From the NCBI GenBank assembly GCA_964016885.1, contig OZ024740.1:180730001-180794000 (forward strand): a stretch of 64,000 bases of DNA, given 5' to 3'. A program made the translations under genes and the position numbers. The notes beneath the pieces are model-generated. The model saw only the letters and a list, made by a program, of their open reading frames with translations. It was not told the origin of the DNA and made no database searches. Origin of the DNA: Eledone cirrhosa (taxonomy: Eukaryota). This document shows positions 9,989-38,446 of the stretch, piece by piece (within the stretch, counting starts at the first letter, position 1; every line of letters begins with the position of its first letter).

Positions 9989-10068
9989 GAAAGCCAGACA
10001 AGGAATATTGAACTAGTTTCGTTGTTGTTACAACTCATCAGCAATATTTACCTATCTTCCGGCCTTTC
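9989..10068 (-). ncRNA. Type I hammerhead ribozyme, family A (inverted copy)
   Basis: Reverse complement of the motif at 10512-10591; TCATCAG at 10035-10041. Confidence 0.88.
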
Positions 10069-10511: not shown

Positions 10512-10591
10512 GAAAGGCCGGAAGATAGGTAAATATTGCTGATGAGTTGTAACAACAACGAAACTAGTTCAATATTCCTTGTCTGGCTTTC
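10512..10591 (+). ncRNA. Type I hammerhead ribozyme, family A
   Basis: Stem I AATATTG/CAATATT, extended by GAAAGGCCGGA/TCTGGCTTTC; core CTGATGA (10539-10545); stem II GTTGT-AACA-ACAAC; GAAA; palindromic stem III ACTAGT; GUU cleavage triplet (10567-10569). Confidence 0.9.
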
Positions 10592-10977
10592 TGAAGAATA
10601 GAGGAAAGGTGTTTCCTCAAAAACCAGTATGACTCTAAAAACCGGTTTGTCTGTGTGTTTACATACAGAATAGCTGGACACTCACAGTAAAGTGACCAGT
10701 GAAAAACTTGGTACATCTACATATGTATACGTGTGTGTATTCATATGCATACTAGTATTTCAGTATACATATGTGGATGTACATTTTTAACTTAATTGTT
10801 TAAGCGTCAGTCATACAAAAGTGAGTTACAAACGAAACGAAATTTAATTTCGTTTCGTTATTTGTTTTTATCGTCTCCGTTGAACCGGTACGTACTCACA
10901 CTCTATGCAAATTAGTCTGCCCACTACTAATTTTCATAGAAAAAGCATATAACGATATGTGCTTTTACGATTCTCCA

Positions 10978-11057
10978 GAAAGGCCGGAAGATAGGTAAAT
11001 ATTGCTGATGAGTTGTAACAACAACGAAACTAGTTCAATATTCCTTGTCTGGCTTTC
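10978..11057 (+). ncRNA. Type I hammerhead ribozyme, family A
   Basis: Same motif, CTGATGA at 11005. Confidence 0.9.
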
Positions 11058-11443
11058 TGGAGAATAGAGGAAAGGTGTTTCCTCAAAAACCAGTATGACT
11101 CTAAAAACCGGTTTGTCTGTGTGTTTACATACAGAATAGCTGGACACTCACAGTAAAGTGACCAGTGAAAAATTTGGTACATCTACATATGTATACGTGT
11201 GTGTATTCATATGCATACTAGTATTTCAGTATACATATGTGGATGTACATTTTTAACTTAATTGTTTAAGCGTCAGTCATACACAAGTGAGTTACAAACG
11301 AAACGAAATTTAATTGCGTTTCGTTATTTGTTTCTATCGTCTCCGTTGAACCGGTACGTACTCACACTCTATGCAAATTAGTCTGCCCACTACTAATTTT
11401 CATAGAAAAAGCATATAACGATATGTGCTTTTACGATTCTCCA

Positions 11444-11523
11444 GAAAGGCCGGAAGATAGGTAAATATTGCTGATGAGTTGTAACAACAACGAAACTAGT
11501 TCAATATTCCTTGTCTGGCTTTC
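11444..11523 (+). ncRNA. Type I hammerhead ribozyme, family A
   Basis: Same motif, CTGATGA at 11471. Confidence 0.9.
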
Positions 11524-11730
11524 TGGAGAATAGAGGAAAGGTGTTTCATCAAAAACCAGTATGACTCTAAAAACCGGTTTGTCTGTGTGTTTACATACAG
11601 AATAGCTGGACACTCACAGTAAAGTGACCAGTGAACAATTTGGTACATCTACATATGTATACGTGTGTGTATTCATATGCATACTAGTATTTCAGTATAC
11701 ATATGTGGATGTACATTTTTAACTTAATTG

Positions 11731-11818
<88 letters not shown>

Positions 11819-14009
11819 GCATGTGTGTATGCATAAGCGTGTAAATACAGTGCTGTTCTTAAGAATATGTACACTGCAGATCGTATAGATTTTTAGAGCT
11901 GGACTGTTTTATTACAGATGGTTTTCTATTACATAGCAATAGTACATACACATTCACTTAGCTTTTACTGAATCCATAATTTCATTATACAAATGTAGAT
12001 ATAAGAGCAATTATTTATATCAACATGCTAGGGATAACCATTGTTAATAATTGTGCTTTTAAACGTGCAAATCCATGGCGCATACTTTGGGATTTCTATG
12101 TGTTGGTTTGTTTCAAATGCGACATTTTCAAACGAGGATGATTTTTTTCTGTTTCATCTACATTTGTATATTATTAAGCGGGAATTTATTGTGCATGCAT
12201 ATATATTGCTGATGAAATATATAACCGGTTTCTTATTGCAACGAGAACTAATGTTGAATAAATAGCTTTCACTGTATTATTAATCCTAATATATATTAAA
12301 ATCAGATTAGAATAATATTTTGTAATTCTTTGATAGTTTTAGACAAGTTTCAGGGAGAATGAAAAAGACGCAATTAAAAACATTCAGCTATAAATCCTGA
12401 GCTCTTGAACATATATTCAACAAACATCATATATGCATATCTACAATACAAAGCTAGAAAATATCATCCCAGTTTACTACAGCAGAATTGCAAAACACGG
12501 AAGCCATTTGGAAAGAAAAATATAATTTATCAATTATGTAACATGCCACTTTAAACAAGAGCCAACAATTATCACAAAATTAATGAACGCCACATTATTT
12601 AATTAATTTAGCTGAATCACACTTTTTTTAACAATGATAATGAAGCTCCACAGAAACTTGACAAATTCCCGAAGTCATGAATAATAATCTGAAGATGACA
12701 ATAGAACATTATTTAAGATATGGAATTATGTTTCTGTGAAACCCCAAAATTGTTTTCCCTGTCAATATTTAGGTAAGTCAGAACAACTAACTTCCTGATT
12801 TATTTTAAATAAAAAGAAATACATTGAAACTAAACTAACTCTTTGCTGCTGCGCAGAGGTAAATATCTCATCAACCGCTTGATTTCCTACATATGGTGTT
12901 CAATATTTACCTGAAATTCTATCTCATGAATCAGAGAATTTGAATTACATCTATCAAATACTAGATATAAGATATGTGTGACTATGTAAACATGCTACGT
13001 ATGGCAATTAAACTTATATTTAACGAAAGACATGTTGTATTGAATTAAATGGCATTCTTATTAATTTATATCTCTGTAACATTTACGAAACACCTTCAGA
13101 ATACTTCATTAAGGACTCAAGGCTTAATAGTTAGAAACGAGGGTTGCGGCTTTCGCAAAAATAAGCGGTTGGTGATTTGGGAGAAATAAAATACCATTAG
13201 CGATTCTCTCATTGACCAACGAAAAAAGCAGTATATTACAGAATTTCGGGGTTCTGTGTTATCGTGTAGGTGAAATGTTCTCAACCCATTTCGGCCAAAC
13301 GCCCCCTTTTGCCTCTCGAAATCACGAAACGCCCCTCCCCCCTATTTTTCCATTATTAAATATACTATTGATTTTGATATCAGTAGATTAATGGGCCAAA
13401 AAATCAAGTTATCTTTGAATCTTTAAAAAATACTCGTACGAATTAAATTCAAAAGAGTTTCAGTCCAAAAGAAAAGCAAGATATTTAAAATGATATATTT
13501 TTGAAATAAAAAAAAAAGATTTGATCTCAGTCGAAAATTTATTTTTTTTTTAAATTCTATATTTCACTGTTACCTGTTGTAATATTTTGAGTGGATAGAC
13601 AATTGAAACTGTAAAGTCAAAATACAAAAGATGCAAAATATGAAGAATTTCTTACCTTTCTCTGAAATCACAAACTCAGAGGAAAAATATTAGCTTGCAA
13701 AATAATATACCTCGTAGCGAAATAAAATACTTAGTGGCCACGAATGAATGGAGAAGCTTGGTGACTGAAAAAGCAAGATCTGTGTGCCTTGGTTTTGGTA
13801 CAGGAAGAATGTTGTCTCCAGTTTTTATTGCAGGTCAAAGGTCACTGCTCTTTTCAACAACACCAAATAACAACGCCACATATATATATATATATATTTG
13901 AAGAGAGAATGAGGGGGGAGAGTAAAATAGCTGTGTGTGTTTGGAAAACGTATATCTACCTATCTATCTATCACCAACAGAGGGCTCAAACATGGTAGAC
14001 CAGACAGAA

Positions 14010-14323
14010 AAATAATAATTGTTTCTACTTTAGGCACAAGGCCAGCAAATACCCAGTGCATTACTGGTACTTAATTTTATCGACCCCCGTAAGGATGAAA
14101 GGCAGAGTCAACCTCGGCGGGATTGGAACTCAGATCGTAAAGGGACGTAACTATGCTGGAAAGCATGGCGTCCGACCCTCTACCGATACTGCCAATCCAC
14201 CGCCCTGAAAAATAATTGTTTCTACTTTAGGCACAAGGCCAGCAATTACACCAGTGCAATACTGGTACTTTATTTTATCGACCCCGTAAGGATGAAAGGC
14301 AAAGTCAACCTCGGCGGGATTTG
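14010..14323 (-). mobile_element. Tandem SINE dimer (full copy plus 5'-truncated copy)
   Basis: Two consecutive minus-strand SINE bodies (about 14010-14205 and 14208-14323), each bounded by GAAAAATAAT. Confidence 0.88.
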
Positions 14324-14504
14324 AAAAATAATAATACCCTTTTGTTGTATCTGAACCCTTTTAATTACCCACAAAACCAATACATATATCCCCCTCTTCT
14401 CTCTCATTCCTCTTCTATTTCTTCGTTTTCTTCCTTCCTTCCCTCCCCTTCCAGGCTATCTTTTCTTTTCCTCTTTCTGACCTCCTTCTTTGCTTTTATT
14501 TTTG

Positions 14505-14684
14505 TCAGTATCGGTAGAGGGTCGGACGCCATGCTTTCCAGTATAGTTACGTCCCTTTACGATCTGAGTTCAAATCCCGCCGAGGTTGACTTTGCCTTTC
14601 ATCCTTACGGGGTCGATAAAATAAAGTACCAGTAATGCACTGGATAATTGCTGGCCTTGTGCCTAAAGTAGAAACAATTATTAT
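14505..14684 (+). mobile_element. tRNA-derived SINE
   Basis: CAGTATCGGTAGAGGGTCGGACGCC...GAGTTCAAATCCCGCCGAGG...GTAGAAACAATTATTAT. Confidence 0.9.
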
Positions 14685-15179
14685 CTTCATCTTTATTTTT
14701 TATATATATATGTATCTCTTTATATCTCCCCCCCCTCTCTCCCTCTCCCACTCTATCCATCCCTCCCACTATGATCAAGTTAATTCTCTTTAACTCACTA
14801 CATTCCACGACTTGAAGTCTGCTATCAAAACTGACCAAGGAATCCTTCCACCTCCACCCTCCTTCCATCTCTGTTTGTCACTCTACTTCCTACCTCTACC
14901 CCCTTCCTTTCTCTCTATACTATTCCGTTTGTCCCCTCACCTTCTGAATCCTCTCTCTCTATACTAGTAAATACGATTCCAAATAAATGTTTTTCTCTAT
15001 ATATTAAGAACTATTTCAAGAGTAACTTACTATTTTGAAAATGTGGACTGTGAACAACAATTATAATTGAGTGGCTGCTATTTGCAGTATAACAATATAA
15101 GGTTGCACTTAACAATGAAACGGTCGTAAATACCTGGATAAAAGCCTTCTCTTAATGCATTCCTGTGTTTTCTCGTTTA

Positions 15180-15243
<64 letters not shown>

Positions 15244-15253
15244 ATATATATAA

Positions 15254-15332
<79 letters not shown>

Positions 15333-15577
15333 GATATACAATATATATATATATATACATACATACATACATACATTTACGTATGTATATAGCTATGCAT
15401 TTATACATTTGTATATATACATGTATTTACATTTATGTTTTTTTGGGGGTAAAGAGAAAAATGTCTCCAGATTTTATTATCTAGGGAGATTAAATACTAC
15501 AGCTCTGGTTGAAAGCTGACCAGGTTCTCAACCTCATCTAACACTAACGCAGGCCTGTGTGTGTGTATATATATATA

Positions 15578-15608
<31 letters not shown>

Positions 15609-15655
15609 ATGTATGTATGTATGTATGTATGTATGTATGTATGTATGTATGTATG

Positions 15656-16240
15656 TGTTGGTGCTACTGGTAACATGTATCCCAGTACAACCTGTCTTAT
15701 GGTCGGGTCATTGGCGACGAAACCGGCAACACCAGCAAGGTTTCTTGGTGAGGAGGGTGACTTTGGACATCCTGCAGGACTAAAAACAAAACCTGTCAAA
15801 TGGCAAAGGAGCTCTTAAGAGTCAATGGCCATCCAAATTCACCGGCGGAGATGAGCCCTTAGCCTTTGTCAAGGCAGAATTCTAGGAGAAACAAAACTCT
15901 GATATAACACCTGCAACCCTGATGGTATCCAATGTTCTTCTTTTTGGTAAATATCATCTTGGTTAAGAGAGTGGGACTGGGTTTGGGTACTGCCTTTGCT
16001 CACTATAAAAGCTTCACGGCACAGGCATTGCTTTATATCTGGAGATTTCCCTGCACTTGTCGTCACATGGTACCATGGCCCAGCACTATGTGTCAATAAT
16101 TGTCACAAGTGTAGTGTTTGTACCAGAGTATTCAAGTCGCTGGCTGGACTAAAGCGTCACATTTGTTCAGCGCATCGGTAGGGGTTCTCCTACATGGATA
16201 TAAAGTAGTGGCCGTACTCGAAAACGAGTTGGCAGCCACC
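15656..16240 (+). mobile_element. Internally deleted RTE-like non-autonomous element (5' region plus C-terminal C2H2 knuckle and 3' end) within (TATG)n
   Basis: [22 protein letters not shown] (ORF 15996-16181) resembles the terminal zinc knuckle of RTE ORFs; the 5' part (15660-15830) is homologous to the reverse complement of 25300-25472; microsatellite on both sides. Confidence 0.55.
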
Positions 16241-17810
16241 ATGTATATATGTGTATGTATATATATAAGTATGTATATAATACGTATGTATGTATGTATA
16301 TACATGTATGTATGTATATATGTGTGTATGTATATACATATATATGTATATATATATATGTATGTATATATATGTGTATGTACATACATGTATATGTATG
16401 TATATGTATATATGTATGTATATGTAATATGTATATGTTATATGTATGTATATGTATATGTGTATGTATATGTGTGTATGTATGTGTATGTATATGTATA
16501 TATATATATGTATATATATATGTATATATATGTATGTATGTGTATATATGTATGTATGTGTATGTATATGTATATATGTATGTATATATGTATGTATATG
16601 TGTGTATGTATATATATGTATATGTATGTATTATGAATGTACGTATGCATGTGTGTGTATGTTCGTATGTATGTATATGTATTCACCCACACCTTTCATC
16701 ACCATCGCTTCTGCTTGTCAATTCTGTTGAAGTTGTTGTTGTAACTGTTGTCAAAGTTGACATCCTTATGTTCATTTTCTTTGATTTCTTTCGTTTTTTT
16801 TTTTATCTCCCTATGGAATTCGTTGACAAGCTTCTTTTATTTATTTTATTCGTTTTCGTCATTCAAATGCATTCACACTGGCTGTCTAAGAGACGTACAA
16901 ATATGACTTATAAAACTTAGCAAACTAAACAAACTAAAGGGGCATCTAGCGCCCCCAAAGCTTCAAACTCCCCCCTAACGCTCCCTTGCTCCCAAATGAC
17001 CCCTTGAGCCCCGAACCGCCCCGAGGGGCATATTCCCCCCGTTGAGAACCTTTGTTGTATGTCATGAATATTGTGAAATGTACATTATCCATAACATTAT
17101 ACATATGAGAAGGGTGAGATTGAGGAAATACATAATTTTCCTTCTATGTGTTTGTCTCATTGTTCAACACTAATATTATTGATGGTTAGTATTGATATTG
17201 TGAAATACCAAAACTTGCATTTAAATATATTTATATATATGGATATTTTCTACAAGAGAAAGTTGATTGTATTCTTAAAATGAATTTCAGTTCAATATAT
17301 TCAAGAGTTTTGCGAGTAACGTATTTATCCGTAAGAGGAGATTATTAGAGGGCAACATATTTATTTACATATATAGAATTATATTTGTATAATTGTATTA
17401 TATGACGTATTTCGTATATGCATGCAATATATGTTATAGGTTCCGTTATTTTGTCAAATATTAAGCTATGGATTGTCATTTTCTATTTAGTGAACAAAAT
17501 AAATTATTCACGTATTGACATGCATCCATGTACATTACATTTCATATGCTGCTTCTGATATATATGTGTATATTAGTGTGTGTGTGCATGTGTGTGAGCG
17601 TGTGTCTGTGTATGTGTGTGTGTGTGTATCCCCGGTTTAATCGGGTGTAGCTACAGTAAATAAGTTGCTCAAAACATAGCAAAGTATAAATATTTGATAT
17701 AGAAATCGCTTCTACAGGACTAGAACGATTTAATTCCAAGGAATTCATCAGGAAAGCCCTTCCTGATGATTTGCTTCGAATAAAACAGCCATTCCTATAT
17801 TAAATTAAGT

Positions 17811-17878
<68 letters not shown>

Positions 17879-17882
<4 letters not shown>

Positions 17883-20421
17883 TAACTCGTCCCATGGTCT
17901 GAGGGCTCCACCACTACAGATATTACCTTCCAGTGTTCAACCACTATATACGTCTCCAGCAACGGTCAGCAGATCTTTTCACTACGTAGAAGTTTGGCTT
18001 TTAGCAGATCCTTCACCACGTGCGAGTTTGGCTTCTTACCCTGTGAGCACTCTCTCTATCTTCGTGTCCTACACAAGTTTGTGTCTCATCAACGTCAGTA
18101 TGGATTTATACGAACCGGATTACTCCCTGAAGAACATTCCCACTCACTCCAACCATGTTTACTAAAAGCCTCTCCTACAAAAAGCGTAAGATGTCGTCAG
18201 AAGCTTAAGATGGCGAACCCTAGCCTTTGACGGCAAAGTTACAGGCACCAATAACACCTTCAACCTGAAATCTAGAGCCTACCCTGCTAAGGTAACTCAA
18301 CTTGCTCCTTTCGAGGTGGACCTTCTTGACTTAGTCGCTAACATTTCCTTTCGCAAACACCCTAACACCTTTCAAACTAAACTTAGACATGATATTAAGA
18401 AATGTAGGTCTTCTAATAACACCTTCGTCCTTTCCGACAAATCTAATAATATTTACGAAGTCGTCAACAGCACTTTCCGCCACTTAGCTCATAACGCTAT
18501 TACTCCCAAATATAAGAAAGCTAACCCTATGTCCTACCACGCCATTAATACAGAAGCCAAACAACTTGCCGCCGCCCTTAAGGTAGATAAGAAGCTACAA
18601 TCTCTAGCTAAGCGGGAGGCGTTCCTCACCCTGAAAAATCACAAGGTAGACTTTACTTCTAACCGCACATGTAGACTAATAAACCCGGCACGCACAGATA
18701 TGGGACTAGTCAGTAAGGCCATACCTAGAAACATAGTTTAGACCATTAGGACCAAGTCCAACCTGCCTCAGTGGGAGAACAGCGACTCCGTAATTAACTG
18801 GTTTAACTCCTTCAAATCTAAAATAGCGAAGTTCACACAGTTTGACATTTACCCATCCATCTCAGAGACCCTGTTAAACAAAGCGTTGGACTTTTCTACC
18901 ACTTACACTACAGTCGATGGTTTAGACAGGGAAATCATCGCTCACTTTCGGAAAACCCTCCTCTTCAACAACGGAGTAGCCTGGGAAAAGAAGTCAACAA
19001 CTTCAGACCTATTCGATGTCTCCATGGGATAGATTGACAATGCTGACGTATGCGACTTGGTTGGCCTATTTATTTTAGACATATTACCGATTAGATTTCC
19101 GGACTTCCACACAGGAATATACCGCGACGATGGACTGACCTTATCGAGCCATAAAAGTGATCACGACCTCGACCGGTTTAAAAAAGACTTAGCTTCTACC
19201 TTCAATGTCTAACAGTAGCTACCAACCTCTGTAGCGTAGATTTCTTAGACATTAATTTAGACCTTCGCACAAAAACATACAGACCCTTCCATAAGCTAAA
19301 CGAAAAACTCAATTACATTTACAAGGACTCATGCCACCCTCCCACTGTTTTAAGAAACTTCGTAAATAATATTAGTACTAGAATGTCAAACCTCTCCTCT
19401 AATAAGGCTATATTTGACTGGGCGGCACCCTACTATAACAAGGCGTTAGCTAACAGCGGCTTCTTGCAACCTATCACTTACTCTCCTACTAACAACAACA
19501 GCAATAAGAAAAGAAAGCGTAACTATAGACAAACTATCTGGTGCTCTCCTCCCTTCTCACGCAACGTCAAATCCAATGTAGGCAAAAAATGTCTAGCCCT
19601 CTTAGATAGGCTCTTTCCAATAAGTCATAAATACTGTTCCATCTTTAACCGACACAAAGTAAAACTAGGATACTCCTGCGCTAAGAACATGAAGGCCCAC
19701 ATCACCAACAGCCCTAAGAACAACACCCCCACCAGGGTGCACTTGCCCTAAGCCCGGAGCTTGTCCCCTCCAACAGCAATGCAACACACCCGCTGTAGTT
19801 TATGAAGCTCTGGTCAATTCCAACCGACCAAATCAACCACAGGAGATCAAATCCTATGTGGGTATGGCAGAGGGCCGATTTAAGGAACGCTTCTTGAACC
19901 ATCAGTCGACCTTTAGGTACCCGGACAGACGTTCATCCACGATACTCGCGAGCCACGTATGGTTCCTCAAGGAGTCAAGTATAGACTACACCATTCAATG
20001 GAAAGCCATCACTAAGTCCAAGCCATACGCAAGGGGCAATTTGTTGTGTGGACTATGTATTGATGAACGAATAAATATTCTAAAGAGATTACGCAATAGT
20101 GATTGCCTAAACACGCGAAATGAATTCTTCACACGTTGTCCACACGTCTGGAAACATCTCTTACATAACTACAAAGTTCCGGATTGAATTACAACAACAT
20201 CCTAATTTTCTTATCAATTAGAAACTTTCTGACTTCCGCAGTTATCTCCCTTACACTTCTCGCACGCAATTTAGTATTGCCTGTGAGAAGTGATCTTTTC
20301 TGACCATGCGCGTTCGTACGGTTGTCCTTCCTGTCCGTATAACCATGTCCATTACGAGCTGACGATCCGCTAGGGTGAAACAATTGTTCTCGGTATGGTG
20401 AACTAACTGTTGTGTAACCAC

Positions 20422-20425
<4 letters not shown>
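17879..20425 (+). mobile_element. Penelope-like retroelement (Naiad-like), RT + GIY-YIG, frameshifted, inserted in (TA)n
   Basis: RT pieces CRLINPA, FDI..PSI and GIYRDDGL (about 19114); linker CTCPKPGACPLQQQC; endonuclease VVYEA...SYVGMAEGRFKERFLNHQSTF...CGLCIDE...LNTRNEFFTRCPH; (TA)n on both sides; hammerhead in the 3' pLTR. Confidence 0.9.
20355..20392 (+). ncRNA. Minimal type I hammerhead ribozyme in a PLE pLTR
   Basis: CGAG-CTGACGA-TCC GCTA GGGT-GAAA-CAATTG-TT-CTCG: stem I CGAG/CTCG, palindromic stem III ACAATTGT, GUU triplet. Confidence 0.8.
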
Positions 20426-20452
<27 letters not shown>

Positions 20453-20455
<3 letters not shown>

Positions 20456-20572
20456 GCCTGCCCGCCCAGACAGTGGGGTGGCGTTATCTAATGGCTAAAA
20501 CAGCACGACGTGCTGTGACCAGTGGCGCCGATTGACGCCCGACAGACTGGTCGGTCAAGGTGATCAAGGTGA
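20453..20572 (+). mobile_element. Probable 3' part of a second SINE family
   Basis: Short GC-rich island between (TA)n tracts, ending in the tandem tail GGTCAAGGTGATCAAGGTGAT; family assignment is from recollection only. Confidence 0.4.
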
Positions 20573-20647
20573 TATATATATATATATACGCGCACGCACA
20601 TACACATATACACACTCATACACACAAACATACACACACACACGCAA

Positions 20648-20689
<42 letters not shown>

Positions 20690-22484: not shown

Positions 22485-22545
<61 letters not shown>

Positions 22546-22566
22546 TCCCGGTTATATATATAGAGA
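21880..22566 (+). mobile_element. Non-autonomous Helentron/DINE-1(HINE)-like element
   Basis: Starts ACTAGC..CCCGGCGTTGCACGG; internal direct repeats (GACGTAACGCCTCAAAA x2); subterminal (CAGA/CA)n; ends TTATATATATAGA; 3' part homologous to 31465-31560. Confidence 0.6.
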
Positions 22567-24970: not shown

Positions 24971-25160
24971 TTGGGTGGTGGATTGGCAGTATCAGTAGAG
25001 AGTCGGACACCATCCTTTGAAACATAGAGTTACGTCCCTTTATTATCTGAGTTCAAATCCCGCCGAGGTTAACTTTGCTTCTCATCCTTACGGGGTCGAT
25101 AAAATAAAGTACCAGTAAGGGACTGGGTAATTATTGGCCTTGTGCCAAAAAGTAGAAACA
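24971..25160 (+). mobile_element. tRNA-derived SINE, full-length, with 15-bp TSD
   Basis: A-box-like TGGCAGTATCAG and B-box GAGTTCAAATCCC; TSD ATTATTTTAGTTTAT at 24956-24970 and 25161-25175. Confidence 0.9.
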
Positions 25161-25179
25161 ATTATTTTAGTTTATGCAG

Positions 25180-25298
25180 AGGGCGGTGATTTTGGCAGTA
25201 TCGGTAGAGGGTTGGACGCCATGCTTTCTAACATAGTTACGTCCCTTTACGGTATGTGTTCAAATCCCGTCGGGGTTAACTTTGCCTTTCATCCTTAT
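25180..25298 (+). mobile_element. tRNA-derived SINE, 3'-truncated
   Basis: GGGCGGTGATTTTGGCAGTATCGG...GTTCAAATCCCGTCGGGGTTAACTTTGCCTTTCATCCTTA, then an abrupt switch to another repeat. Confidence 0.85.
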
Positions 25299-25475
25299 GG
25301 TGCCGTTGATTCTTATGAGTTCATTCACCATTTGACATGTGTATTTTTTGACCTGCAGGATGTCCAAAATCACCGTTCTCACCAAGGAAACTTGGGGTGA
25401 GGGCTGCCGGATTAATCGCCGACGACCCGACCGTGGGAAAGGTTGAACAGAGTTAGATGTTACCATTAGCACTCA
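25299..25475 (-). mobile_element. Fragment homologous to the 5' region of the RTE-like element at 15656
   Basis: The reverse complement shares GTGCTA.TGGTAACAT, GGTCGGGTC.T.GGCGA, TTGGTGAG and TTTGGACATCCTGCAGG with 15660-15830. Confidence 0.65.
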
Positions 25476-25664
25476 AGAGCCACCCGACACATACCCCCCC
25501 CCCCACATATATGTATATATATAAACATATATATATATATATTAATAAATAAATAAATTCGTCCTCAAAAATAGTTTAAATGCTGTGGAACTAACTTCTA
25601 TATATACATACTAAGATGTTGAAACGATATGCGATCAGCCGTCCAAAATCCTTCATATATATAT

Positions 25665-25727
<63 letters not shown>

Positions 25728-28399
25728 GATATTTAATATATGTTTATGTGTGTATATATATGTATATATGTATATATAAGTGTGTGAGTGTATTTCTGTG
25801 TTAGTATGTATATCCATTTATGTATATGAACGAGTTTGCTTTTTTATACATATGTGTGCTTATATTATATTATCTTCGAATTTCAGAATATTTTTCAAAA
25901 TATCTCTTAAAGACATCATATAAATAAAATTCAAGACATTTGCACTCAAGATTTTTACTCATAGCATTGCATTAAATAAGACTTAATGTTGATAAAAATT
26001 ACTTTCATAACCATTACTATATGTAAGAAAAATAAAATATATAATTTTTTCCTAATAGGAGAAAAAACATGAATGAAACTTAACATATATAATGCTTTCA
26101 GTAGCCTTTAATATACATTATATTTCATGTCATTACTTATTTGTCTATTGTATAAGCAATGATTTCTTTATGTTTTTGAATAAGTTATCCTGTAATGTTT
26201 AGTCAATAACTTTTGATCACACTTGCAAATTCAGAATATTTTCGTTTTTTTCCTGGTAAAATGTCATTCTATAATACAGTAACATTTAAAAAATTAAAAA
26301 TGCTACAAAAAATACAAGCAAATTTTATGTGCATTATCGGAAGGCATTTTTCTTATGAATTGACTTCTGATATCATTTTTTTCATTCTAGAAAATTCTAA
26401 ATGGCAACATAACACAATTGTATTTTACCAAGATATTGAATACAAATTGTAAAGATGTTTAACATATTTTCAATACATTTCAAAACGTAACTGACAATTT
26501 TCTTTTTATATATTTCAAGATATGTTTATTACTAAGTATGTATATATGTATATGTGTAACTATGTTAGTATATATGTATGTTTCTATCCATAAATCTATC
26601 TATCCTTCTATCTATCTCTCTATCTATGTATATACATATGTGTGCGTGCGCGCGCGTGTGTGTGTGCGTAAGTGTGTGAGTGTGTGTATGATTATGTGTG
26701 CGTATGCGTGCATGTAACCGACACACATTTATATAGATATATACGCCTATGCATACATGTTTATGTTGTTTTATTTCTTAAGTTTAACCTTGATTATCCA
26801 TAGGAAGCAATCATCGTTGTCCAATGATTGAAGATTGTTAGCTACTCTATCTTTTTTTTCTTTGCAGCGAGTACCGAGATCCAGAATTCGCCTGAAAACC
26901 AAAATATGTTCATAGAAGTTATATTGCGTTTAGTGTCAACCATGACACGCACACGGACATGTGTATGCCAAAATGAAAACCAAGGAAGGCTAAATGACTG
27001 ATGTTGTACATGCCAGGTACATTTAGGATTTTCGATGGCAACATATCTTGAGGAAGATTACTACATCCACTCCATGTAGTACCTTATTGAGACGGGAGCA
27101 CTTGAACTCCAGTACTTTCAGTATTGATCTAGACGTTGTTAACGGTCATTTTCTACTAAGCTGTGACAACCATCTCGAGAGTTATCACTGCTTTGTATGC
27201 TGATGGTTGAATCTATACTTCCGAGGATTGACTGAGTTTCTATAAATTATAAACAGTACTTGATAGCTTTCCAGAACAGGGATTATCTGCTATCGAAATA
27301 AAACAATATTTACAGGCAGTCCTCAAATTAAATTGTCTATTTACTATCTACTAGTCTATCTCTATCTCCAATCTTCCATTCTATGTTTGGTTTGTACAAA
27401 ATTGTGTTTCATAATTCGGCGAATGAGACCTAATAAAATGGTCTGGTCATGCATCCTCTTCAGAAGCTAGAGGTGGAACATCGAAATATGTATAATGCTT
27501 TCGCAGAATTAAAATTCTAAAGTAAATTTTCCAGTCCGGCCATCTGCTCTTGTTTTAATAAATGCATTACACGGTTCCTGCACTAATCACTGGATACCAC
27601 ATCTACGATGGATGATTTTCATAACGTTGAGTGCTTTAATTAATTTATTTCATTGTGGTTTACCTACACAAGCCACCGGTTCTACCCATTTGTAAATAGC
27701 CTAATAGAAATTATATACATATATTGCTTCTCAGAATGAGAATTAAAGTAGTAATGTTTCACTTACTACACATGATGGAAGTATTGCACACTTTTAAGCA
27801 CGCTGTCAGTAAAAATCTAAAAATAACCAGGGCTGTATTTTCTGCCTGATCGATCAAAACAATCTACATTTTCAAATTAATGAAGACCAGATTAAATAAA
27901 TATAATCCCTCATTTATCATATGTCTGAAACATAATGTTCCTGGAGTCTAAAGTATGTTTCGATACTCATGGCTCATCAGGGCCGTGTTTAACCCAGTTC
28001 ATCTGGCATAAAGCTACTGTGAGTGAAAGGCGCCATCCCAAGACAGAATAACCACAATATTACTATAGTTACATTTAATTAATCAGTGGTGCTGGGTACA
28101 TGGATATGGCTGGACTATCTTTAGTCATTAAGACATTTAATTAAGTATGAGCTGGGGCGAAGAAAAAACAACCAAGTAAGGCAAATAATACACAATTATT
28201 TTTGGTTCTTATTTTATTATAATTCAAAAATAATTCACTCACAGTAATTATTAATTAACTAAATCGATCATAAACATAATTATTCTTTTCATATTTGTAC
28301 ATACTTAAATCATTTATTTGTATAAATCAGTACATTCATTGTCCATTGATTGTTTACGAGCTGGAAATGAGCTAATATGGTTTGTTTTGGTTCTTTGCA

Positions 28400-29000
28400 G
28401 TTCTTTGCAGTTCTTTGCAGTTTTGGTTCTTTGCAGTTCGCTTTATATTGAAGGTGTAGAAGAAGATTTATCCAAAACCTAAATACAAATCAGTTGTATT
28501 ACAAATACTGTTATCGGAAATCTTTAAAAACATTTTACAACAAACGTTAAATCGATAATGGATTCGTCACATCATGCAGAAACACCTAACAAAGATTGAC
28601 ACAAATGAAGAGCAAGACGTTTGACATCACTAGAAATCCTGGATTGAAGAAAAAAGCATTGATCAGCTGTTTTCATTGGGAGATAAGAAAAATAAAGATA
28701 ACAAATATATGTTCGTCAACAGCAGCTGGTTCCATCAACACCAGCTCGGCATTGATATTGCATTGCTCAGGCTTCGTACTGCGACGTTCAATAGGAAATC
28801 TTTATGCCTGAAAGGAAGATGTCAATATCTATTTTGCATTAAATATCAATAGTCCATTCATTGCATTAGATTATACTAGAAGAGAGGAACTTTAAACATA
28901 CATTCTTGATTTATAAATATTGGAAGTGTGCATCTATATGTACATAGGTATTTGGTGAGACACATAGTTGCATCAATAGTAGGATTCATTCATAGTGGCT
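28400..29000 (-). pseudogene. Possible highly degenerate Mutator-like (MULE) transposase remnant
   Basis: Short minus-strand peptides in different frames (IDAT.., ..QLINAF.., ..LHLCQSL) occur in the order expected for MULE DDE motifs; very fragmentary. Confidence 0.3.
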
Positions 29001-29342
29001 CCATGGCTTCAGAAAGGGAAAGGCTGTCATATGATGCCGTGGTCTAAACAAACCATTCCTAACCCTTTCTGGACTGAAAAATGTTCTATTAAAAATAATG
29101 TTGTCGTTACTCACGCTAATATTACGGCGTTTATGAATTAGTTTAACTGCTAGTAAATAGAATAATTCAACCTAAAGGATGAGAAAGAAAATTATAACAA
29201 CAATTTGAACGTAAACGCCTATGAAGCAATGTGAATCATTTAAGGAGATCAAATGAAATAAAATAGATAATTTGCTAACACTAATGGAATCAAGCGTGTT
29301 GTCTAAAACCAAAATCCTTTTACACACGCACAAGTTTTATAA

Positions 29343-29377
<35 letters not shown>

Positions 29378-29457
29378 CAACATGACCCCAGCAAAGCATA
29401 AACATATCGGTTTTAACACACGTTTTCAGATAGAGAATCTTGCTAAACAAATTCAGA

Positions 29458-29505
<48 letters not shown>

Positions 29506-29612
29506 AAGTATGTGTTCCTACGTGTAAAAAAATACATATAGGGAAACAAGTATTATCCAACCGTATGCCAATGTGGTTCAATGCCAGGTTAATAAATTAA
29601 CGAGCCAGAACA

Positions 29613-29782
29613 TATAAAATCAAGGTTTAGCAAATAGAGAAAAAGTTTTCAAATAAACTTTAAAAAGTTCGCTGTACTTACTATAAGGGTACATATAGTA
29701 AAGGTACATATAGTAAGTACAGCGAACTGTTTAAAATACATTTTAAAACGTTTTCTCTATTTGCTAAACCTTGATTTTATAT
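29613..29782. repeat. Short fold-back inverted repeat
   Basis: AAAATCAAGGTTTAGCAAATAGAGAAAA...AGTTCGCTGTACTTACTAT is mirrored by ATAGTAAGTACAGCGAACT...TTTTCTCTATTTGCTAAACCTTGATTTT; central direct repeat GGTACATATAGTAA x2. Confidence 0.85.
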
Positions 29783-29786
29783 ATAT

Positions 29787-30451
29787 ACTAGCAGAATAGC
29801 CCGGCGTTGCTCGGGATTTGCTATAGGGTTCTTATATATTCGATATATATTTATCCTTATCGAACCTCGTGAAATAAATAGGTTTGTTTATATTTCGTTA
29901 TTGTGTATGCAAAAATATCTGTCCATAAATATATAAAAATAACAGACTAAAGTTTAAGCAAAGAATCACTGCTTTCACCCTTAACGGGATATTCTACCTA
30001 AAAGGAGTATGAAGTACATACACTAAGACTAATTGATGTAATCTTTGGCCTTGTTTGTTTATATTTTGTTTTTGTGTATGCAAAAATATCTGTACACGAA
30101 TATCTATATTAAAATAACATATTAATATTTAAGCAAAGAATCGGTGCTCTCAACCTTAACGGGATCTTCTTAAACTAAAAAAAATCAATCTGGAAAACAG
30201 GAAGACGATACTTTGATTCGTGAAGACGTTCCCTGGCATAAGAATATATACACACACACACACTGATCGCGTCATAATGACGTAATGCAGACAGTCAGGC
30301 ATACAGATAGATGTTATGAAGGTGCGACGTCATATCTATGTATCTATCTAAAAAGAGAAAGACTAAGAGAAAGAGAAAGAGACCGCTAACTCATAAGGGA
30401 AGCAGACGACATATACACATGTATATAAATATATAAAATAATAATAATAAA

Positions 30452-30493
<42 letters not shown>

Positions 30494-30919
30494 TGGTAAA
30501 CGGAATAGAACATGCTGACAAATTGTTCACAGTTGAAAAATGGTTTAATTAGGAATAAAAGAGTATTAGCGATTGTATGGGTTAGTACTCAGTTGTGGTT
30601 TTAAGTTATTAAGTTTTTACCGGTTACGCACTTCTAAATGCTTTTCAAAAATAATTTTGAGATAGAGTGTCCGTGCTGTTTGCTCAGATCAGAGCAAACA
30701 GCTCGGACACTCTATCTCAAAATTATTTTTGAAAAGCATTTAGAAATGCGTAACCGGTAAAAACTTAATAACTTAAAACCACAACTGAGTACTAACCCAT
30801 ACAATCACTAATACTCTTTTATTCCTAATTAAACCATTTTTCAACTGTGAACAATTTGTCAGCATGTTCTATTCCGTTTACCAATATATAATAATTTGTG
30901 TGTTACACCTCTATTCTTT

Positions 30920-30980
<61 letters not shown>

Positions 30981-31560
30981 GTGTATACAGATACAGACAC
31001 ATATACATATAGCAAACTCACACACGCATATGTGCACATACACACACTCACATGTTAATAGATTTTACTCTTATTGGAACGCTCACACACAAACACACAC
31101 AAACACACACAAACACACGCACACATGTTAATAGTTATACGTCATGTATCTTTGACAGTATCAAAAGACAGCGTCTTTCACTCTCTCTCTCCCTCCCACT
31201 ATCCCCCTCTTGTAGTATGTCTCTTTCTTTCACTCTCCCTCTCCCTCTCTCTTTGTAAATTACATTCTATCGAAAAACAATGTGACGAATGGGAGAAGGA
31301 GGAAGAGGAGAAAAAAGCCACTTCGTCACTTCGCCTCACCGTTTCTTTCTCTCCCCTCTCACTCCCTCATTATGTAGAGACATTGGTCTCTTCAGTAATT
31401 CGATCCCTAGGACAGAATAATTTGAAATTTCTTTTTGCTCAAAACACTTCCGGGGTCATATTTATTACACGTGTAAAGTTTGAAAAATAACCGTTGGGTA
31501 CTTTTCGAGTTTTAGGGAAACAGACGCAGAGACATCCTCTGTTTTATATATATAGATATA
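29787..31560 (+). mobile_element. Non-autonomous Helentron/DINE-1-like element with a nested PLE-derived palindrome
   Basis: Starts ACTAGCAGAATAGCCCGGCGTTGCTCGGG; internal duplication of about 170 bp (29880-30000 vs 30052-30170); end region ...GTAAAGTTTGAAAAATAACCGTTGGGTACTTTTCGAGTTTTAG...TTTTATATATAGAT shared with 22413-22566. Confidence 0.6.
30490..30923. repeat. Near-perfect palindrome made of the 3' end of the Neptune-like PLE family
   Basis: Arms mirrored about 30688; sequence matches 45810-46030 and 53935-54160; (TA)n on both sides. Confidence 0.9.
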
Positions 31561-31584
31561 TATAGAGAGAGATTTAAATATACA

Positions 31585-32660
31585 CAAACTTTGTCCAAAT
31601 GAGTTTGTTTCCTCATGAGTTCGAAGCTCGAGATTTATCCTTAATAGGATATTTCCGAAAGCTGACGAAACCGTAAGGGTAGAAACGTGATCCTTGTTTG
31701 TGTATATGCATTTTCTCTTCACATTTTAATTTTATACCTAATTGTGTATGGTTGACGGTATATTTAATCGATTTCCACGTGCTATTGAAGTGTTGGGTAA
31801 ATATTCTATAGCGGTTGGTCGCAAAATGATTGCTGTCGTTTATTTATCTAATATTTCTTCATAGGTGGCTTTTAATCTTATAGCCTGGTTTAATTGATTT
31901 TTGTGTGGTTAATTATGCTAATTGGGAGAGGAAATGGTGTATAAATATTATCAAATGATTCTATGGACATACTTTATAGTATATTTCTTTGATTATTTAA
32001 TGTATTAATTTAGCATTGAGCCACATCGTGAATGGTTGCGAAAACATATATCTGTGACTTTGTCTATTTGTGTATATGTATATCTTTATATTTAATCATC
32101 TCCCATAAGGTGAGATGCAATTTGGGCAATATTGGGCTGCGCTTTCTAGCAACCAGCCCACTCACCGTAAACAACCAATAATATTATTTCTGACTTGACC
32201 ACTGCCACGTCACAGTTCTTAGCCATTTTGAATTCGTTTCTGGCGGGGATCACTTAAGAACATTCTCTGTCCAAATGAGTTTGTTTCTCATGAGTTCGAA
32301 GCTCGAGATGTTATCCTTAATAGGATATTTCCGAAAGCGAACGAAACTCTAAGGGTAGAAACGTATCCTGGTATGTGTATATGCATTTTCGTCTTCTAAC
32401 TTTAATTTTATACCTAATTGTGTATGCTTGAAGGTATATTTAATCGATTTCCACGTGCTATTGAAGTGTTGGGTAAATACATTATAGCGGTTGGTCGCGA
32501 ATAGATTGCTGTCGTTTATTTATCTAATATTTCTACATAGGTGCCTTTTAATCTTATTGCCTGGTTTAAATGATTTTTTGTGTGGTAAATTATGCTAATT
32601 GGGAGAGGAAATGGTGTATATATATATTATCAAATGATTCTATGGACATACTTTATAGTA
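31585..32660 (+). mobile_element. Diverged direct repeat of about 395 bp (31585-31982 and 32265-32660), probably a tandem PLE pLTR relic with degenerate hammerheads
   Basis: The two copies align along their length; copy 1 has AAG-CTGACGA-AACCGTAAGGGTA-GAAA-CGTGATC-CTT (31659-31695); the core in copy 2 is mutated. Confidence 0.6.
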
Positions 32661-32679
32661 TATATATATATATATATAT

Positions 32680-35600
32680 ATAAGTTGAAAAAAATGAAAA
32701 CGAAATTTCATTTCTCACTCTTAGTATGGCACTTACTTAAATGTAAGTATGTATGTATACGTACATACATATATGTATACAGACGTACAGTAGCATGCAT
32801 ATATATATATATATATATATACATATATACACATATGCATACAGGTACACATACATATATGCACGCATCAGTTTAGCCGACGTTTATTATAACGCCTGCT
32901 TTGTTCGTTTGTTTGTCAACAAATCGAACAGCCTGAATTTATGCCATACGGTGTTAAGGCAACCACGTCACCTTTTTGTTCAACACTGACACAGGAACGA
33001 TGTACTAGTTTCAAGCTTGTTAGCTATCATCAGCACCGTTTACCCATCTGCCAGATAGTTGAACGTTCGAAAGTATATACTTTCCTTATGAAAATTAACG
33101 GCTGAGCAGCCTAATTTGCATATTGAGTGAGTTAAATCGGTCAGGCATACCGAAAACGATAAGTTGAAAAAAATGAAAACGAAATTTCATTTCTCACTCT
33201 TAGTATGGCACTTACTTAAATGTAAGTATGTATGTATACGTACATACATATATGTATACAGACGTACAGTAGCATGCATATATATATATATATATATATA
33301 CATATATACACATATGCATACAGGTACACATACATATATGCACGCATCAGTTTAGCCGACGTTTATTATAACGCCTGCTTTGTTCGTTTGTTTGTCAACA
33401 AATCGAACAGCCTGAATTTATGCCATACGGTGTTAAGGCAACCACGTCACCTTTTTGTTCAACACTGACACAGGAACGATGTACTAGTTTCAAGCTTGTT
33501 AGCTATCATCAGCACCGTTTACCCATCTGCCAGATAGTTGAACGTTCGAAAGTATATACTTTCCTTATGAAAATTAACGGCTGAGCAGCCTAATTTGCAT
33601 ATTGAGTGAGTTAAATCGGTCAGGCATACCGAAAACGATAAGTTGAAAAAAATGAAAACGAAATTTCATTTCTCACTCTTAGTATGGCACTTACTTAAAT
33701 GTAAGTATGTATGTATACGTACATACATATATGTATACAGACGTACAGTAGCATGCATATATATATATATATATATATACATATATACACATATGCATAC
33801 AGGTACACATACATATATGCACGCATCAGTTTAGCCGACGTTTATTATAACGCCTGCTTTGTTCGTTTGTTTGTCAACAAATCGAACAGCCTGAATTTAT
33901 GCCATACGGTGTTAAGGCAACCACGTCACCTTTTTGTTCAACACTGACACAGGAACGATGTACTAGTTTCAAGCTTGTTAGCTATCATCAGCACCGTTTA
34001 CCCATCTGCCAGATAGTTGAACGTTCGAAAGTATATACTTTCCTTATGAAAATTAACGGCTGAGCAGCCTAATTTGCATATTGAGTGAGTTAAATCGGTC
34101 AGGCATACCGAAAACGATAAGTTGAAAAAAATGAAAACGAAATTTCATTTCTCACTCTTAGTATGGCACTTACTTAAATGTAAGTATGTATGTATACGTA
34201 CATACATATATGTATACAGACGTACAGTAGCATGCATATATATATATATATATATATACATATATACACATATGCATACAGGTACACATACATATATGCA
34301 CGCATCAGTTTAGCCGACGTTTATTATAACGCCTGCTTTGTTCGTTTGTTTGTCAACAAATCGAACAGCCTGAATTTATGCCATACGGTGTTAAGGCAAC
34401 CACGTCACCTTTTTGTTCAACACTGACACAGGAACGATGTACTAGTTTCAAGCTTGTTAGCTATCATCAGCACCGTTTACCCATCTGCCAGATAGTTGAA
34501 CGTTCGAAAGTATATACTTTCCTTATGAAAATTAACGGCTGAGCAGCCTAATTTGCATATTGAGTGAGTTAAATCGGTCAGGCATACCGAAAACGATAAG
34601 TTGAAAAAAATGAAAACGAAATTTCATTTCTCACTCTTAGTATGGCACTTACTTAAATGTAAGTATGTATGTATACGTACATACATATATGTATACAGAC
34701 GTACAGTAGCATGCATATATATATATATATATATATACATATATACACATATGCATACAGGTACACATACATATATGCACGCATCAGTTTAGCCGACGTT
34801 TATTATAACGCCTGCTTTGTTCGTTTGTTTGTCAACAAATCGAACAGCCTGAATTTATGCCATACGGTGTTAAGGCAACCACGTCACCTTTTTGTTCAAC
34901 ACTGACACAGGAACGATGTACTAGTTTCAAGCTTGTTAGCTATCATCAGCACCGTTTACCCATCTGCCAGATAGTTGAACGTTCGAAAGTATATACTTTC
35001 CTTATGAAAATTAACGGCTGAGCAGCCTAATTTGCATATTGAGTGAGTTAAATCGGTCAGGCATACCGAAAACGATAAGTTGAAAAAAATGAAAACGAAA
35101 TTTCATTTCTCACTCTTAGTATGGCACTTACTTAAATGTAAGTATGTATGTATACGTACATACATATATGTATACAGACGTACAGTAGCATGCATATATA
35201 TATATATATATATATACATATATACACATATGCATACAGGTACACATACATATATGCACGCATCAGTTTAGCCGACGTTTATTATAACGCCTGCTTTGTT
35301 CGTTTGTTTGTCAACAAATCGAACAGCCTGAATTTATGCCATACGGTGTTAAGGCAACCACGTCACCTTTTTGTTCAACACTGACACAGGAACGATGTAC
35401 TAGTTTCAAGCTTGTTAGCTATCATCAGCACCGTTTACCCATCTGCCAGATAGTTGAACGTTCGAAAGTATATACTTTCCTTATGAAAATTAACGGCTGA
35501 GCAGCCTAATTTGCATATTGAGTGAGTTAAATCGGTCAGGCATACCGAAAACGATAAGTTGAAAAAAATGAAAACGAAATTTCATTTCTCACTCTTAGTA

Positions 35601-38317: not shown

Positions 38318-38377
<60 letters not shown>

Positions 38378-38441: not shown

Positions 38442-38446
<5 letters not shown>

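What the first reader, a model, noticed from the sequence alone, without database searches (positions are those of the whole stretch)
10512..33054. Compensatory covariation between the family A and family B ribozymes
Seen: the two units differ in most of their primary sequence but keep the same architecture with changed pairs. Stem I is AATATTG/CAATATT vs AACGGTG/CATCGTT; stem II is GTTGT/ACAAC vs AGCT/AGCT; the distal stem is GGCCGGA/TCTGGCT vs CTGGCA/TGTCAG. Loop 2 (AACA), the internal-loop segment AGAT(A/G)GGTAAA and the ACTAGT stem III are conserved. Established: contacts between loop 2 and a stem I bulge give natural hammerheads fast cleavage at low Mg2+. Inference: selection acts on the RNA structure, and AACA with GGUAAA may define a lineage-specific tertiary contact.
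Basis: partly seen in the sequence, partly recalled or inferred. Interest (0 to 1): 0.8.

Follow-up and report, generated by a model that had tools for sequence, protein, structure and literature searches.

The report
Hammerhead retrozymes with U6-type promoter element
These two tandem DNA repeats are related mobile elements whose predicted self-cleaving RNA keeps its base pairing despite heavy sequence change and likely uses the standard loop contact, and each unit carries the same short upstream motif as the host's U6 genes, which likely lets it drive its own transcription.

Summary
The covariation is real but ordinary for hammerheads; the proposed lineage-specific contact is not supported. 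A (466 bp) and B (479 bp) are homologous tandem units with type I hammerheads, part of a clan with over 41,000 pattern matches in this 3-Gb genome. In 14 subfamily copies, none of the nine helical pairs breaks, and 7 of 9 pass a tree-aware test in 18 copies. Three 'pairs' need correcting: 2.7:1.7 and the loop-2 closing U-A are the canonical Schistosoma-type contact (U1.7 and the last loop A are fixed in 18 of 18), and B has U·U at 10.1:11.1. AACA and GGUAAA vary. Helix III stays palindromic (CUAG, CGCG, CAUG), pointing to dimer cleavage. Paired changes also occur in the unit body. Insertions have two fixed 3' ends in (TA)n plus inverted 5'-truncated copies, as Penelope-like elements do. Unexpectedly, a 12-nt block about 90-100 nt upstream of the core is 98% conserved, shows no covariation, and matches the element at -77 to -80 of 7 of 9 U6-type host genes (0 of 14 U1/U2 loci). 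This is a likely internal promoter, which a 2020 review says metazoan retrozymes seem to lack. No RNA data were available.

The parts
10324..11730 (+). Family A tandem array, 466-bp unit, 3 copies; 3' end at unit position 229 followed by (TA)n
9709..10324 (-). Inverted, 5'-truncated family A piece with one hammerhead (core at 10041); 3' end at unit position 302 in (TA)n
10516..10588 (+). Family A type I hammerhead (core 10539; predicted cleavage 10569/10570 after GUU); further copies with cores at 11005 and 11471
   Evidence: (Rfam HH9 37.7 bits, E 1.9e-7, below the gathering score of 52)
10438..10449 (+). Family A conserved block TATGCAAATTAG, same element as at -77 to -80 of U6, U6atac, MRP and tRNA-Sec genes; TATA-like at 10482; repeated at 10904, 11370 and 10142 (-)
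32680..38141 (-). Family B tandem array, 479-bp unit, 11 hammerheads; 3' end at unit position 323 in (TA)n
38141..38320 (+). Inverted, 5'-truncated family B piece (unit positions 86-265) ending in (TA)n
32986..33054 (-). Family B type I hammerhead (core 33033; predicted cleavage 33003/33002 after GUA; U·U at 10.1:11.1); 10 more copies up to core 37819
   Evidence: (HH9 18.5 bits, E 0.16)
33111..33122 (-). Family B conserved block TATGCAAATTAG, with TCAGC at +17 and TATATA at +43; one per unit
17879..20424 (+). Decayed Penelope-like element with Hydra-clade motifs, flanked by (TA)n, minimal hammerhead at 20359; candidate type of mobiliser, not shown to be the partner

Best explanation
A and B are two diverged, homologous families of tandem repeats with type I hammerheads (non-LTR retrozymes) whose helices keep pairing through compensatory changes while the nucleotides of the standard loop contact stay fixed; each unit is likely transcribed from its own snRNA-type promoter element, likely cleaves as a dimer, and is likely copied into (TA)n by Penelope-like machinery. 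Shown from sequence: homology, covariation, the fixed U1.7, bulge UA and last loop-2 A, the palindromic helix III, the insertion layout, and the match of the upstream block to host U6-type genes. Inferred: cleavage, the U1.7 to loop-2 A contact (by correspondence with solved hammerheads), pairing of two neighbouring units through the 6-nt palindrome, circle formation, promoter activity and the mobiliser. The polymerase is open. I lean to Pol II-like read-through, because units contain T5-T7 runs and the TATA spacing is 2-6 nt shorter than in the U6-type genes. Selection acts on the spread of master copies, not on single inserted copies.
For: Homology. Covariation: 14 copies: none of the 6 proximal stem I pairs or 3 stem II pairs is ever broken; score 0.599 against 0.178 shuffled and at most 0.102 slid; 18 copies: 7 of 9 pairs E<0.05; tree events 18 double and paired, 10 single and paired, 4 broken. 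Contact: U1.7, bulge U and A, L2.2, L2.3 and L2.6 are fixed in 18 of 18 while 2.7 is A5/U9/C4; 15,780 genomic matches have U or C at 2.7; canonical description in PMC2632901 and PMC11875169 (passages). Dimer: the two central helix III columns are UA 9, GC 3, AU 2 of 14 and never break, though adjacent bases cannot pair within one molecule; 19,222 matches to a C-R-Y-G helix III pattern, 99 of the first 100 reading CGCG; the axolotl and newt precedent (PMC7229834). Body helices: 11 pairs with double changes outside the ribozyme. Insertion layout: 22 of 22 A ends fall in two classes, 228-234 and 301-303, 21 of them into TA-rich repeat; among the first 100 listed B-type matches, 13 divergent against 1 convergent neighbour pair within 1 kb (my count); this matches the PLE layout in 10.1101/2021.04.23.441226. 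Promoter: block 98% identical between A and B groups against 53-57% for the body; 0 of 9 hairpin pairs there change on both sides; motif at -77 to -80 in U6 x3, U6atac, MRP and tRNA-Sec x2, absent in 14 of 14 U1/U2 loci and 19 of 19 weaker U6/U6atac hits; tRNA-Sec was looked up after the idea was formed; the motif is also in distant families G and I.
Against: No cleavage, transcript or start site was observed. Representatives were hand-picked as intact (18 of 28 candidates), which favours pairing. The tree came from the same 52 columns, and 6 of the top 14 scoring column pairs are not base pairs. Pairs 2.1:1.1 and 2.2:1.2 do not pass (E 0.32, 0.48). Both families score below the Rfam gathering threshold. 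A1/A2 have a GUU triplet and B a U·U at 10.1:11.1, which may slow cleavage. One preprint found cleavage in only 1 of 9 predicted Xenopus retrozymes. The motif-to-TATA distance is 43-46 nt in the repeats against 47-49 in the genes, and A1 and G3 fail the strict TATA pattern. RNase P and the 7SK-like gene lack the motif, as do families D and E. The block is one arm of an imperfect inverted repeat that can fold as a hairpin. No homology was found between the units and the 3' repeat of the window's PLE family beyond TA-rich hits, and Pfam gave that element no hit.
Confidence: 0.7

Rival explanations
1. AACA and GGUAAA form a lineage-specific tertiary contact.
For: Both motifs are identical in the window's A and B copies. 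L2.1 is usually U and 2.7 can be A, so A1 and B1 could close extra Watson-Crick pairs that Schistosoma lacks.
Against: L2.4 is C9/U8/A1, L2.5 is A12/C5/G1 and 2.7 is A5/U9/C4 in 18 copies. 3,129 and 15,780 genomic matches carry other loop or 2.7 states. The fixed positions are the canonical ones.
Confidence: 0.07
2. The conserved 12-nt block is kept as an RNA hairpin or a reverse-transcriptase recognition site, and the units are transcribed only by read-through from outside.
For: It is one arm of an inverted repeat predicted to pair in all 12 aligned units. The TATA spacing differs from the genes, and D and E spread without it. A review states that metazoan retrozymes seem to lack promoters (PMC7761336).
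Against: No double change in 9 hairpin pairs while other helices covary. The variable position follows the same T/G states as the host genes. B and A each match a tRNA-Sec promoter over 14 nt. Chance is about 1e-3 per unit and 6e-5 per gene window.
Confidence: 0.22
3. The units are Pol III transcription units: transcription starts just before the ribozyme and stops at the T-run near the long 3' end, and multimers arise only by terminator read-through, much as described for Schistosoma Sm-alpha.
For: The motif is found only in Pol III-type genes here. Predicted +1 falls 22 nt (A) or 10 nt (B) before the core. T5 at A215 and A296 and T7 at B309 lie just before insertion ends at A228-234, A301-303 and B322-323.
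Against: Arrays of 11 or more full units need templates that cross the T-runs. TCAG-to-TATA is 26-29 nt in B, C and I, overlapping U1/U2 (19-28) and shorter than RNase P and the 7SK-like gene (32-33). D has no T5 run yet has fixed ends. Newt satellite 2 is reported as Pol II.
Confidence: 0.35
4. The ribozymes are kept by selection for a host function of the RNA circles or of particular loci.
For: Very high copy number, and retrozyme circles are abundant in other animals (PMC7229834).
Against: Single copies carry uncompensated breaks (724 matches with a changed 10.4; in the first 100 listed these are mostly one-sided). Successive subfamilies replace each other as in selfish elements.
Confidence: 0.08

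Closest known systems
Metazoan non-LTR retrozymes (Cervera and de la Pena 2020, PMC7229834: coral, mussel, axolotl)
   Same: Non-coding, AT-rich tandem units with one type I hammerhead each; tens of thousands of copies; predicted self-paired circle; co-occurs with PLEs. B's U·U at the base of helix II matches axolotl HHR_Amex2; the one-pair helix III with a palindromic tetraloop matches HHR_Amex1.
   Different: Units of 466-479 bp, slightly above the 150-450 bp quoted there. A conserved promoter-like block and two fixed 3' ends are seen here; a 2020 review says such elements seem to have no promoter and no motif pointing to a mobiliser. Circles and cleavage are not shown here.
Newt satellite 2
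   Same: Tandem unit, palindromic helix III, dimer cleavage, internal snRNA-type promoter (reported second-hand in PMC2220036 and PMC6765202).
   Different: The element here matches the host's U6/U6atac/MRP/tRNA-Sec upstream motif, not its U1/U2 promoters. The original newt paper was not read, so its elements could not be compared.
Schistosoma Sm-alpha hammerhead
   Same: 6-bp proximal stem I, internal loop UCCU:GUAA against UCCA:GUAC, 6-nt loop 2 ending in A; promoter placed upstream of the ribozyme in each unit.
   Different: A and B have a minimal palindromic helix III. The Sm-alpha promoter is Pol III (tRNA-like by my recall), not an upstream-type element.
Penelope-like elements, Hydra clade (10.1101/2021.04.23.441226)
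   Same: Partial tandems, inverted 5'-truncated neighbour, extra tail at one end, (TA)n targets, hammerhead in the repeat.
   Different: No ORF. The hammerheads keep full tertiary loops where the PLE ones are minimal. The end offset is about 60-70 nt in A and B (about 26 in D) against 30-40 for PLEs. No homology to the window's PLE family was found.

Membership tests
Type I hammerhead ribozyme | CUGANGA and GAAA core, NUH site, helices I-III with helix I open | tested here: met
   sites GUU (A) and GUA (B)
Type I hammerhead ribozyme | Helices supported by covariation | tested here: met
Type I hammerhead ribozyme | G10.1-C11.1 pair (recalled consensus) | tested here: inconclusive
   Present in A, U·U in B; a standard pair in 6 of 18 copies; a natural U·U variant is known
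Type I hammerhead ribozyme | Site-specific self-cleavage | not testable with these tools
   needs in vitro transcription
Rfam Hammerhead_HH9 (RF02275) | Score at or above 52 bits | tested here: not met
   37.7 (A) and 18.5 (B); no Rfam match at gathering score in the window
Canonical loop 1-loop 2 contact | U at 1.7 and A at the 3' end of loop 2 | tested here: met
   18 of 18; the contact itself is inferred
Canonical loop 1-loop 2 contact | Extrahelical pyrimidine at 2.7 | tested here: inconclusive
   U or C in 13 of 18, but A in the window's A1 and B1
Non-LTR retrozyme | Short tandem units, each with a type I hammerhead, GC under 50% | tested here: met
Non-LTR retrozyme | No protein coding, no LTR/PBS/PPT | not tested
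   No ORF or PBS scan was run on the units; the layout is tandem rather than LTR-flanked
Non-LTR retrozyme | Expression as linear and circular monomer RNA | not testable with these tools
   no run on record as RNA was listed
Non-LTR retrozyme | Co-occurrence with autonomous PLEs | tested here: met
   150 of 150 scored candidates match the window's PLE endonuclease region
PLE-mobilised element | Inverted 5'-truncated neighbour, two fixed 3' ends, microsatellite target | tested here: met
PLE-mobilised element | Sequence shared with the terminal repeat of an autonomous PLE | tested here: not met
   One PLE family only, 20 loci; other PLE families were not examined
U6-type (type 3 Pol III) promoter of this genome | TATG(C/G)(A/T)AAT(T/G)AG element | tested here: met
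   Matrix scores 24.0 (A) and 20.5 (B) against 13.4-27.8 leave-one-out for the 7 genes
U6-type (type 3 Pol III) promoter of this genome | TATA box 47-49 nt after the element | tested here: not met
   TATA-like at +43 (B, C), +44 (A, TATAAC, fails the strict pattern), +46 (I); none in G3
U6-type (type 3 Pol III) promoter of this genome | Drives initiation about 79 nt downstream | not testable with these tools
   needs 5' end mapping
Hydra-clade PLE (element at 17879-20424) | C-terminal GIY-YIG without CCHH cysteines, CxCX5C linker, DKT-type motif, (TA)n target, hammerhead | tested here: inconclusive

The most novel reading that the evidence does not exclude
This retrozyme clan has captured the host's U6/tRNA-Sec upstream promoter element and placed it just ahead of the ribozyme, so every tandem unit is a self-contained transcription unit: promoter, dimer-dependent hammerhead, structured body, fixed 3' end. 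The shortened spacing may switch it to read-through transcription. Hydra-type Penelope machinery then copies it into (TA)n. That would answer for this lineage the two open points on metazoan retrozymes, how they are transcribed and what moves them.
Probability: 0.5. Interest if true: 0.72.

Novelty: new variant of a known kind. Interest (0 to 1): 0.5.

Why it matters
The covariation itself confirms a textbook fold. What matters more is that a 2020 review (PMC7761336, passages) says metazoan retrozymes seem to have no promoter and no conserved motif that points to their mobiliser. Here a 12-nt block, as conserved as the catalytic core and shared with the host's U6-type genes, gives a testable promoter, and the fixed ends and inverted copies in (TA)n give a testable mobiliser class. 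Precedents in newt and Schistosoma limit the surprise. The clan also offers a natural series of hammerheads with helix III palindromes, U·U, C·A and A·A at 10.1:11.1 and three cleavage triplets for kinetics, and it defines the U6-type promoter motif of this genome.

Tried and rejected
Rfam at gathering score: no match in the window; miRNA-family hits come from TA-rich hairpins and were ignored. Repeat finder output was swamped by microsatellites, as was the first end-mapping script (redone). MAFFT misaligned families E, G and I because helix III lengths differ, so anchored columns were used. Sequencing runs: no RNA holder listed; four runs of unrecorded type hold the A unit as contigs with a head-to-tail joint, which says nothing on expression or circles. 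A 1-nt shorter stem II search (229 matches, 48 in control) gave mostly deletion variants plus leads to families E, G, H. BLAST of the units against 20 PLE loci found no shared terminal repeat. Pfam found nothing in four PLE fragments. In one search, 10 of 36 B rows at unit position 478-479 were alignment breaks at the unit junction and were dropped; of the other 26, 7 end at 261-269, 16 at 313-323 and 3 inside the TA-rich hairpin. A genome-wide count of the motif with a TATA box at fixed distance was not obtained. A possible match between the stem I 3' strand of family D and the TTACCTCCCT element at about -260 of snRNA genes was set aside as probably due to the canonical UCC of loop 1. Earlier scan notes: nothing found. 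Literature searches for a report of these elements or of a U6-type promoter in retrozymes found none; the library lacks most subscription journals, and the supplement of PMC7229834 could not be read and may list this taxon.


Full report
What is in the window. Two tandem arrays carry the ribozymes: family A, 466-bp unit, 10324-11730 (+), and family B, 479-bp unit, 32680-38141 (-). A descriptor scan finds 4 A and 11 B type I hammerheads and two minimal ones at 20359 and 48032. Rfam gives nothing at gathering score; HH9 scores 37.7 bits on A and 18.5 on B. The window lies in a 3.0-Gb genome. My impression of a cephalopod comes from composition only and was not tested. Hammerhead numbering is the standard one, from memory.

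The observation. The quoted stems are present and both regions fold as extended hammerheads. A and B are homologous over the whole unit (60.6% over 827 nt of dimer, E 3e-34; 258 of 432 columns), so differences are substitutions since a common ancestor. In the 10 anchored pairs of proximal stem I and stem II, 14 positions differ and all fall as 7 whole pairs; 6 still pair and one becomes U·U. Under independent sites this is about 1e-4. The caveat is that both were recognised because they pair.

Larger alignment. Pattern searches give 22,024 matches with loop AACA and helix III CUAG (control 0), 3,129 with other loops, 19,222 with a C-R-Y-G helix III, mostly a 310-bp family D, and 1,822 for families E and I with longer helix III. 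Searches are disjoint, so the clan exceeds 41,000. In 14 copies with equal lengths, the six proximal stem I pairs and three stem II pairs are never broken; position 2.3:1.3 occurs as GU, UA, UG and AU; the covariation score is 0.599 against 0.178 shuffled and at most 0.102 slid. An R-scape-like test of my own (G-test with APC, 200 tree-based nulls, 18 of 28 candidate copies chosen as intact) passes 7 of 9 helical pairs at E<0.05; 2.1:1.1 and 2.2:1.2 fail, and 6 of the top 14 column pairs are not base pairs, so the test is rough. Single genomic copies mostly break pairs on one side (first 100 of 724 listed), which fits selection on master copies followed by decay.

The tertiary contact. Pair 2.7:1.7 is unpaired in 13 of 18 copies, yet U1.7 is fixed. 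The bulge U and A and loop positions L2.2, L2.3 and L2.6 are also fixed in 18 of 18, while L2.4 is C9/U8/A1. 15,780 B-type matches have U or C at 2.7. Dufour et al. (PMC2632901, passages) give the Schistosoma loops as UCCA:GUAC and CAAAUA and describe a reverse Hoogsteen pair between loop-1 U and the 3' A of loop 2 as shared by most natural hammerheads; PMC11875169 (passages) places that U at 1.7. Here the loops are UCCU:GUAA and UAACAA. The contact is therefore most likely the canonical one. One difference remains: the window's A1 and B1 have A at 2.7 where a pyrimidine is usual.

Helix III. It is a 6-nt palindrome in A, B, C (ACUAGU), D (ACGCGU) and in G and one B array (ACAUGU). The two central columns covary (UA 9, GC 3, AU 2 of 14) although adjacent bases cannot pair within one molecule. 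This points to pairing between two units. Axolotl ribozymes with the same features, including a U·U at the base of helix II, cleave poorly as monomers and well as dimers (PMC7229834, parts 2-4 of 6 read). The predicted monomer fold pairs the palindrome with the core, which would help keep circles intact; this is a prediction only.

Structure beyond the ribozyme. In 12 A, B and C units, 17 of 75 consensus pairs change on both sides, 11 of them in the body, including a long-range helix (columns 89-96 with 314-321). The structure was derived from this alignment and the 12 units are in effect two groups, so this is suggestive.

Insertion layout. Both window arrays have an inverted, 5'-truncated piece. 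Across fetched loci, 3' ends fall at two places per family: A 228-234 (10 of 22) and 301-303 (12 of 22); B 261-269 (7 of 26) and 313-323 (16 of 26); D 139 (6 of 11) and 164-165 (4 of 11), nearly all into (TA)n (10 B rows dropped as alignment breaks). A302 and B323 are homologous. In the first 100 matches I count 13 divergent and 1 convergent neighbour pair within 1 kb. This is the layout described for Penelope-like elements (10.1101/2021.04.23.441226, passages and section 11). The window holds a decayed PLE with Hydra-clade motifs and (TA)n flanks, and the family is abundant, but it shares no terminal repeat with the units. A 2026 preprint argues for a PLE origin of vertebrate retrozymes and found cleavage in 1 of 9 tested (10.64898/2026.07.22.740005, parts 1-3 of 5).

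The unexpected part. The longest identical run between A1 and B1 is not in the ribozyme but is TATGCAAATTAG, 101 nt (A) and 89 nt (B) before the core. It is 98% identical between the groups against 53-57% for the body. It can form a hairpin with a downstream imperfect copy, but none of those 9 pairs changes on both sides. The same element lies at -77 to -80, with a TATA box 47-49 nt later, in three U6 promoters, U6atac, RNase MRP and two tRNA-Sec genes; it is absent from RNase P, a 7SK-like gene, 14 U1/U2 loci and 19 weaker U6/U6atac hits. A matrix from the 7 genes scores A at 24.0 and B at 20.5, within the leave-one-out range of 13.4-27.8. In 348 kb of background (both strands) the pattern occurred 7 times: 3 in B copies, 3 in one other repeat of the window, 1 elsewhere. 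Families G and I carry it; D and E do not. The TATA-like box in the repeats is at +43 to +46, and B, C, G and I have TCAG at +17, resembling the TCAGT at -57 of U1/U2. So the element looks like a promoter, but the polymerase is unsettled. PMC7761336 (passages) says metazoan retrozymes seem to lack promoters; internal promoters are reported for newt (snRNA type, Pol II) and Schistosoma (Pol III) (PMC2220036 and PMC6765202, passages; originals not read). Searches found no report of these elements or of a U6-type element in retrozymes.

Verdict. Covariation confirmed, with three pairs redrawn; lineage-specific contact not supported; the elements are non-LTR retrozymes by every feature I tested. 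The likely internal promoter and the Penelope-type ends are the new points. No RNA evidence was available.

Noticed in passing
window 17879-20424 (+); 3' fragment near 48032: Decayed Penelope-like element with CxCX5C linker, DKS motif, GIY-YIG without internal cysteines, (TA)n flanks and a minimal hammerhead with an 8-nt palindromic helix III; a large family in the genome.
   Followed up: partly
window 31589-32660 (+), with an inverted piece near 38380-38450: Third repeat in two copies about 670 bp apart with a minimal hammerhead-like motif (core 31662, decayed in the second copy) and a TATGCTAATTGG variant of the upstream motif followed by TATA 25 nt later; the B array sits in the (TA)n at its end.
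   Followed up: no
L159, L142, L157, L020 (family D, 310 bp): Abundant family with helix III ACGCGU, U·U or A-U at 10.1:11.1 and G-A-U-A bulge; it lacks the U6-type motif but shares a different upstream block and TATA with family E.
   Followed up: partly
L174, L191, L193 (family E); L189, L082 (family I); L112, L124, L125 (family G): Older, mostly dispersed families; E and I have longer non-palindromic helix III, and E has a GUAC bulge and CAAACA or CAACCA loop, closest to the Schistosoma form.
   Followed up: partly
L201-L204, L213-L215, L239-L242, L248, L269-L278, L281: Promoter grammar of this genome's small RNA genes: TTACCTCCCT-like element near -260 in most; TCAGT at -57 in U1/U2 and at -63 to -66 in RNase P and the 7SK-like gene; TATGCAAAT(T/G)AG at -77 to -80 in U6, U6atac, MRP and tRNA-Sec. 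Useful for building expression vectors.
   Followed up: partly
L281 (G000:C2:194684573-194684853): Single 7SK-like gene just under the Rfam cut-off (40.6 against 44 bits) with TATA at -30 and a T-run terminator.
   Followed up: no
window 20230-20260: The PLE 3' repeat contains ACTTCCG and TTATCTCCCTT, resembling the distal element of the snRNA promoters.
   Followed up: no
window 14010-14330, 14510-14690, 24985-25300: Several copies of a SINE-like repeat of about 200 bp in both orientations; one copy is also inserted in a U6 promoter (L219).
   Followed up: no
L142-L155: A family D array whose copies all carry a 1-nt insertion in the 3' strand of stem I, amplified with the defect.
   Followed up: no
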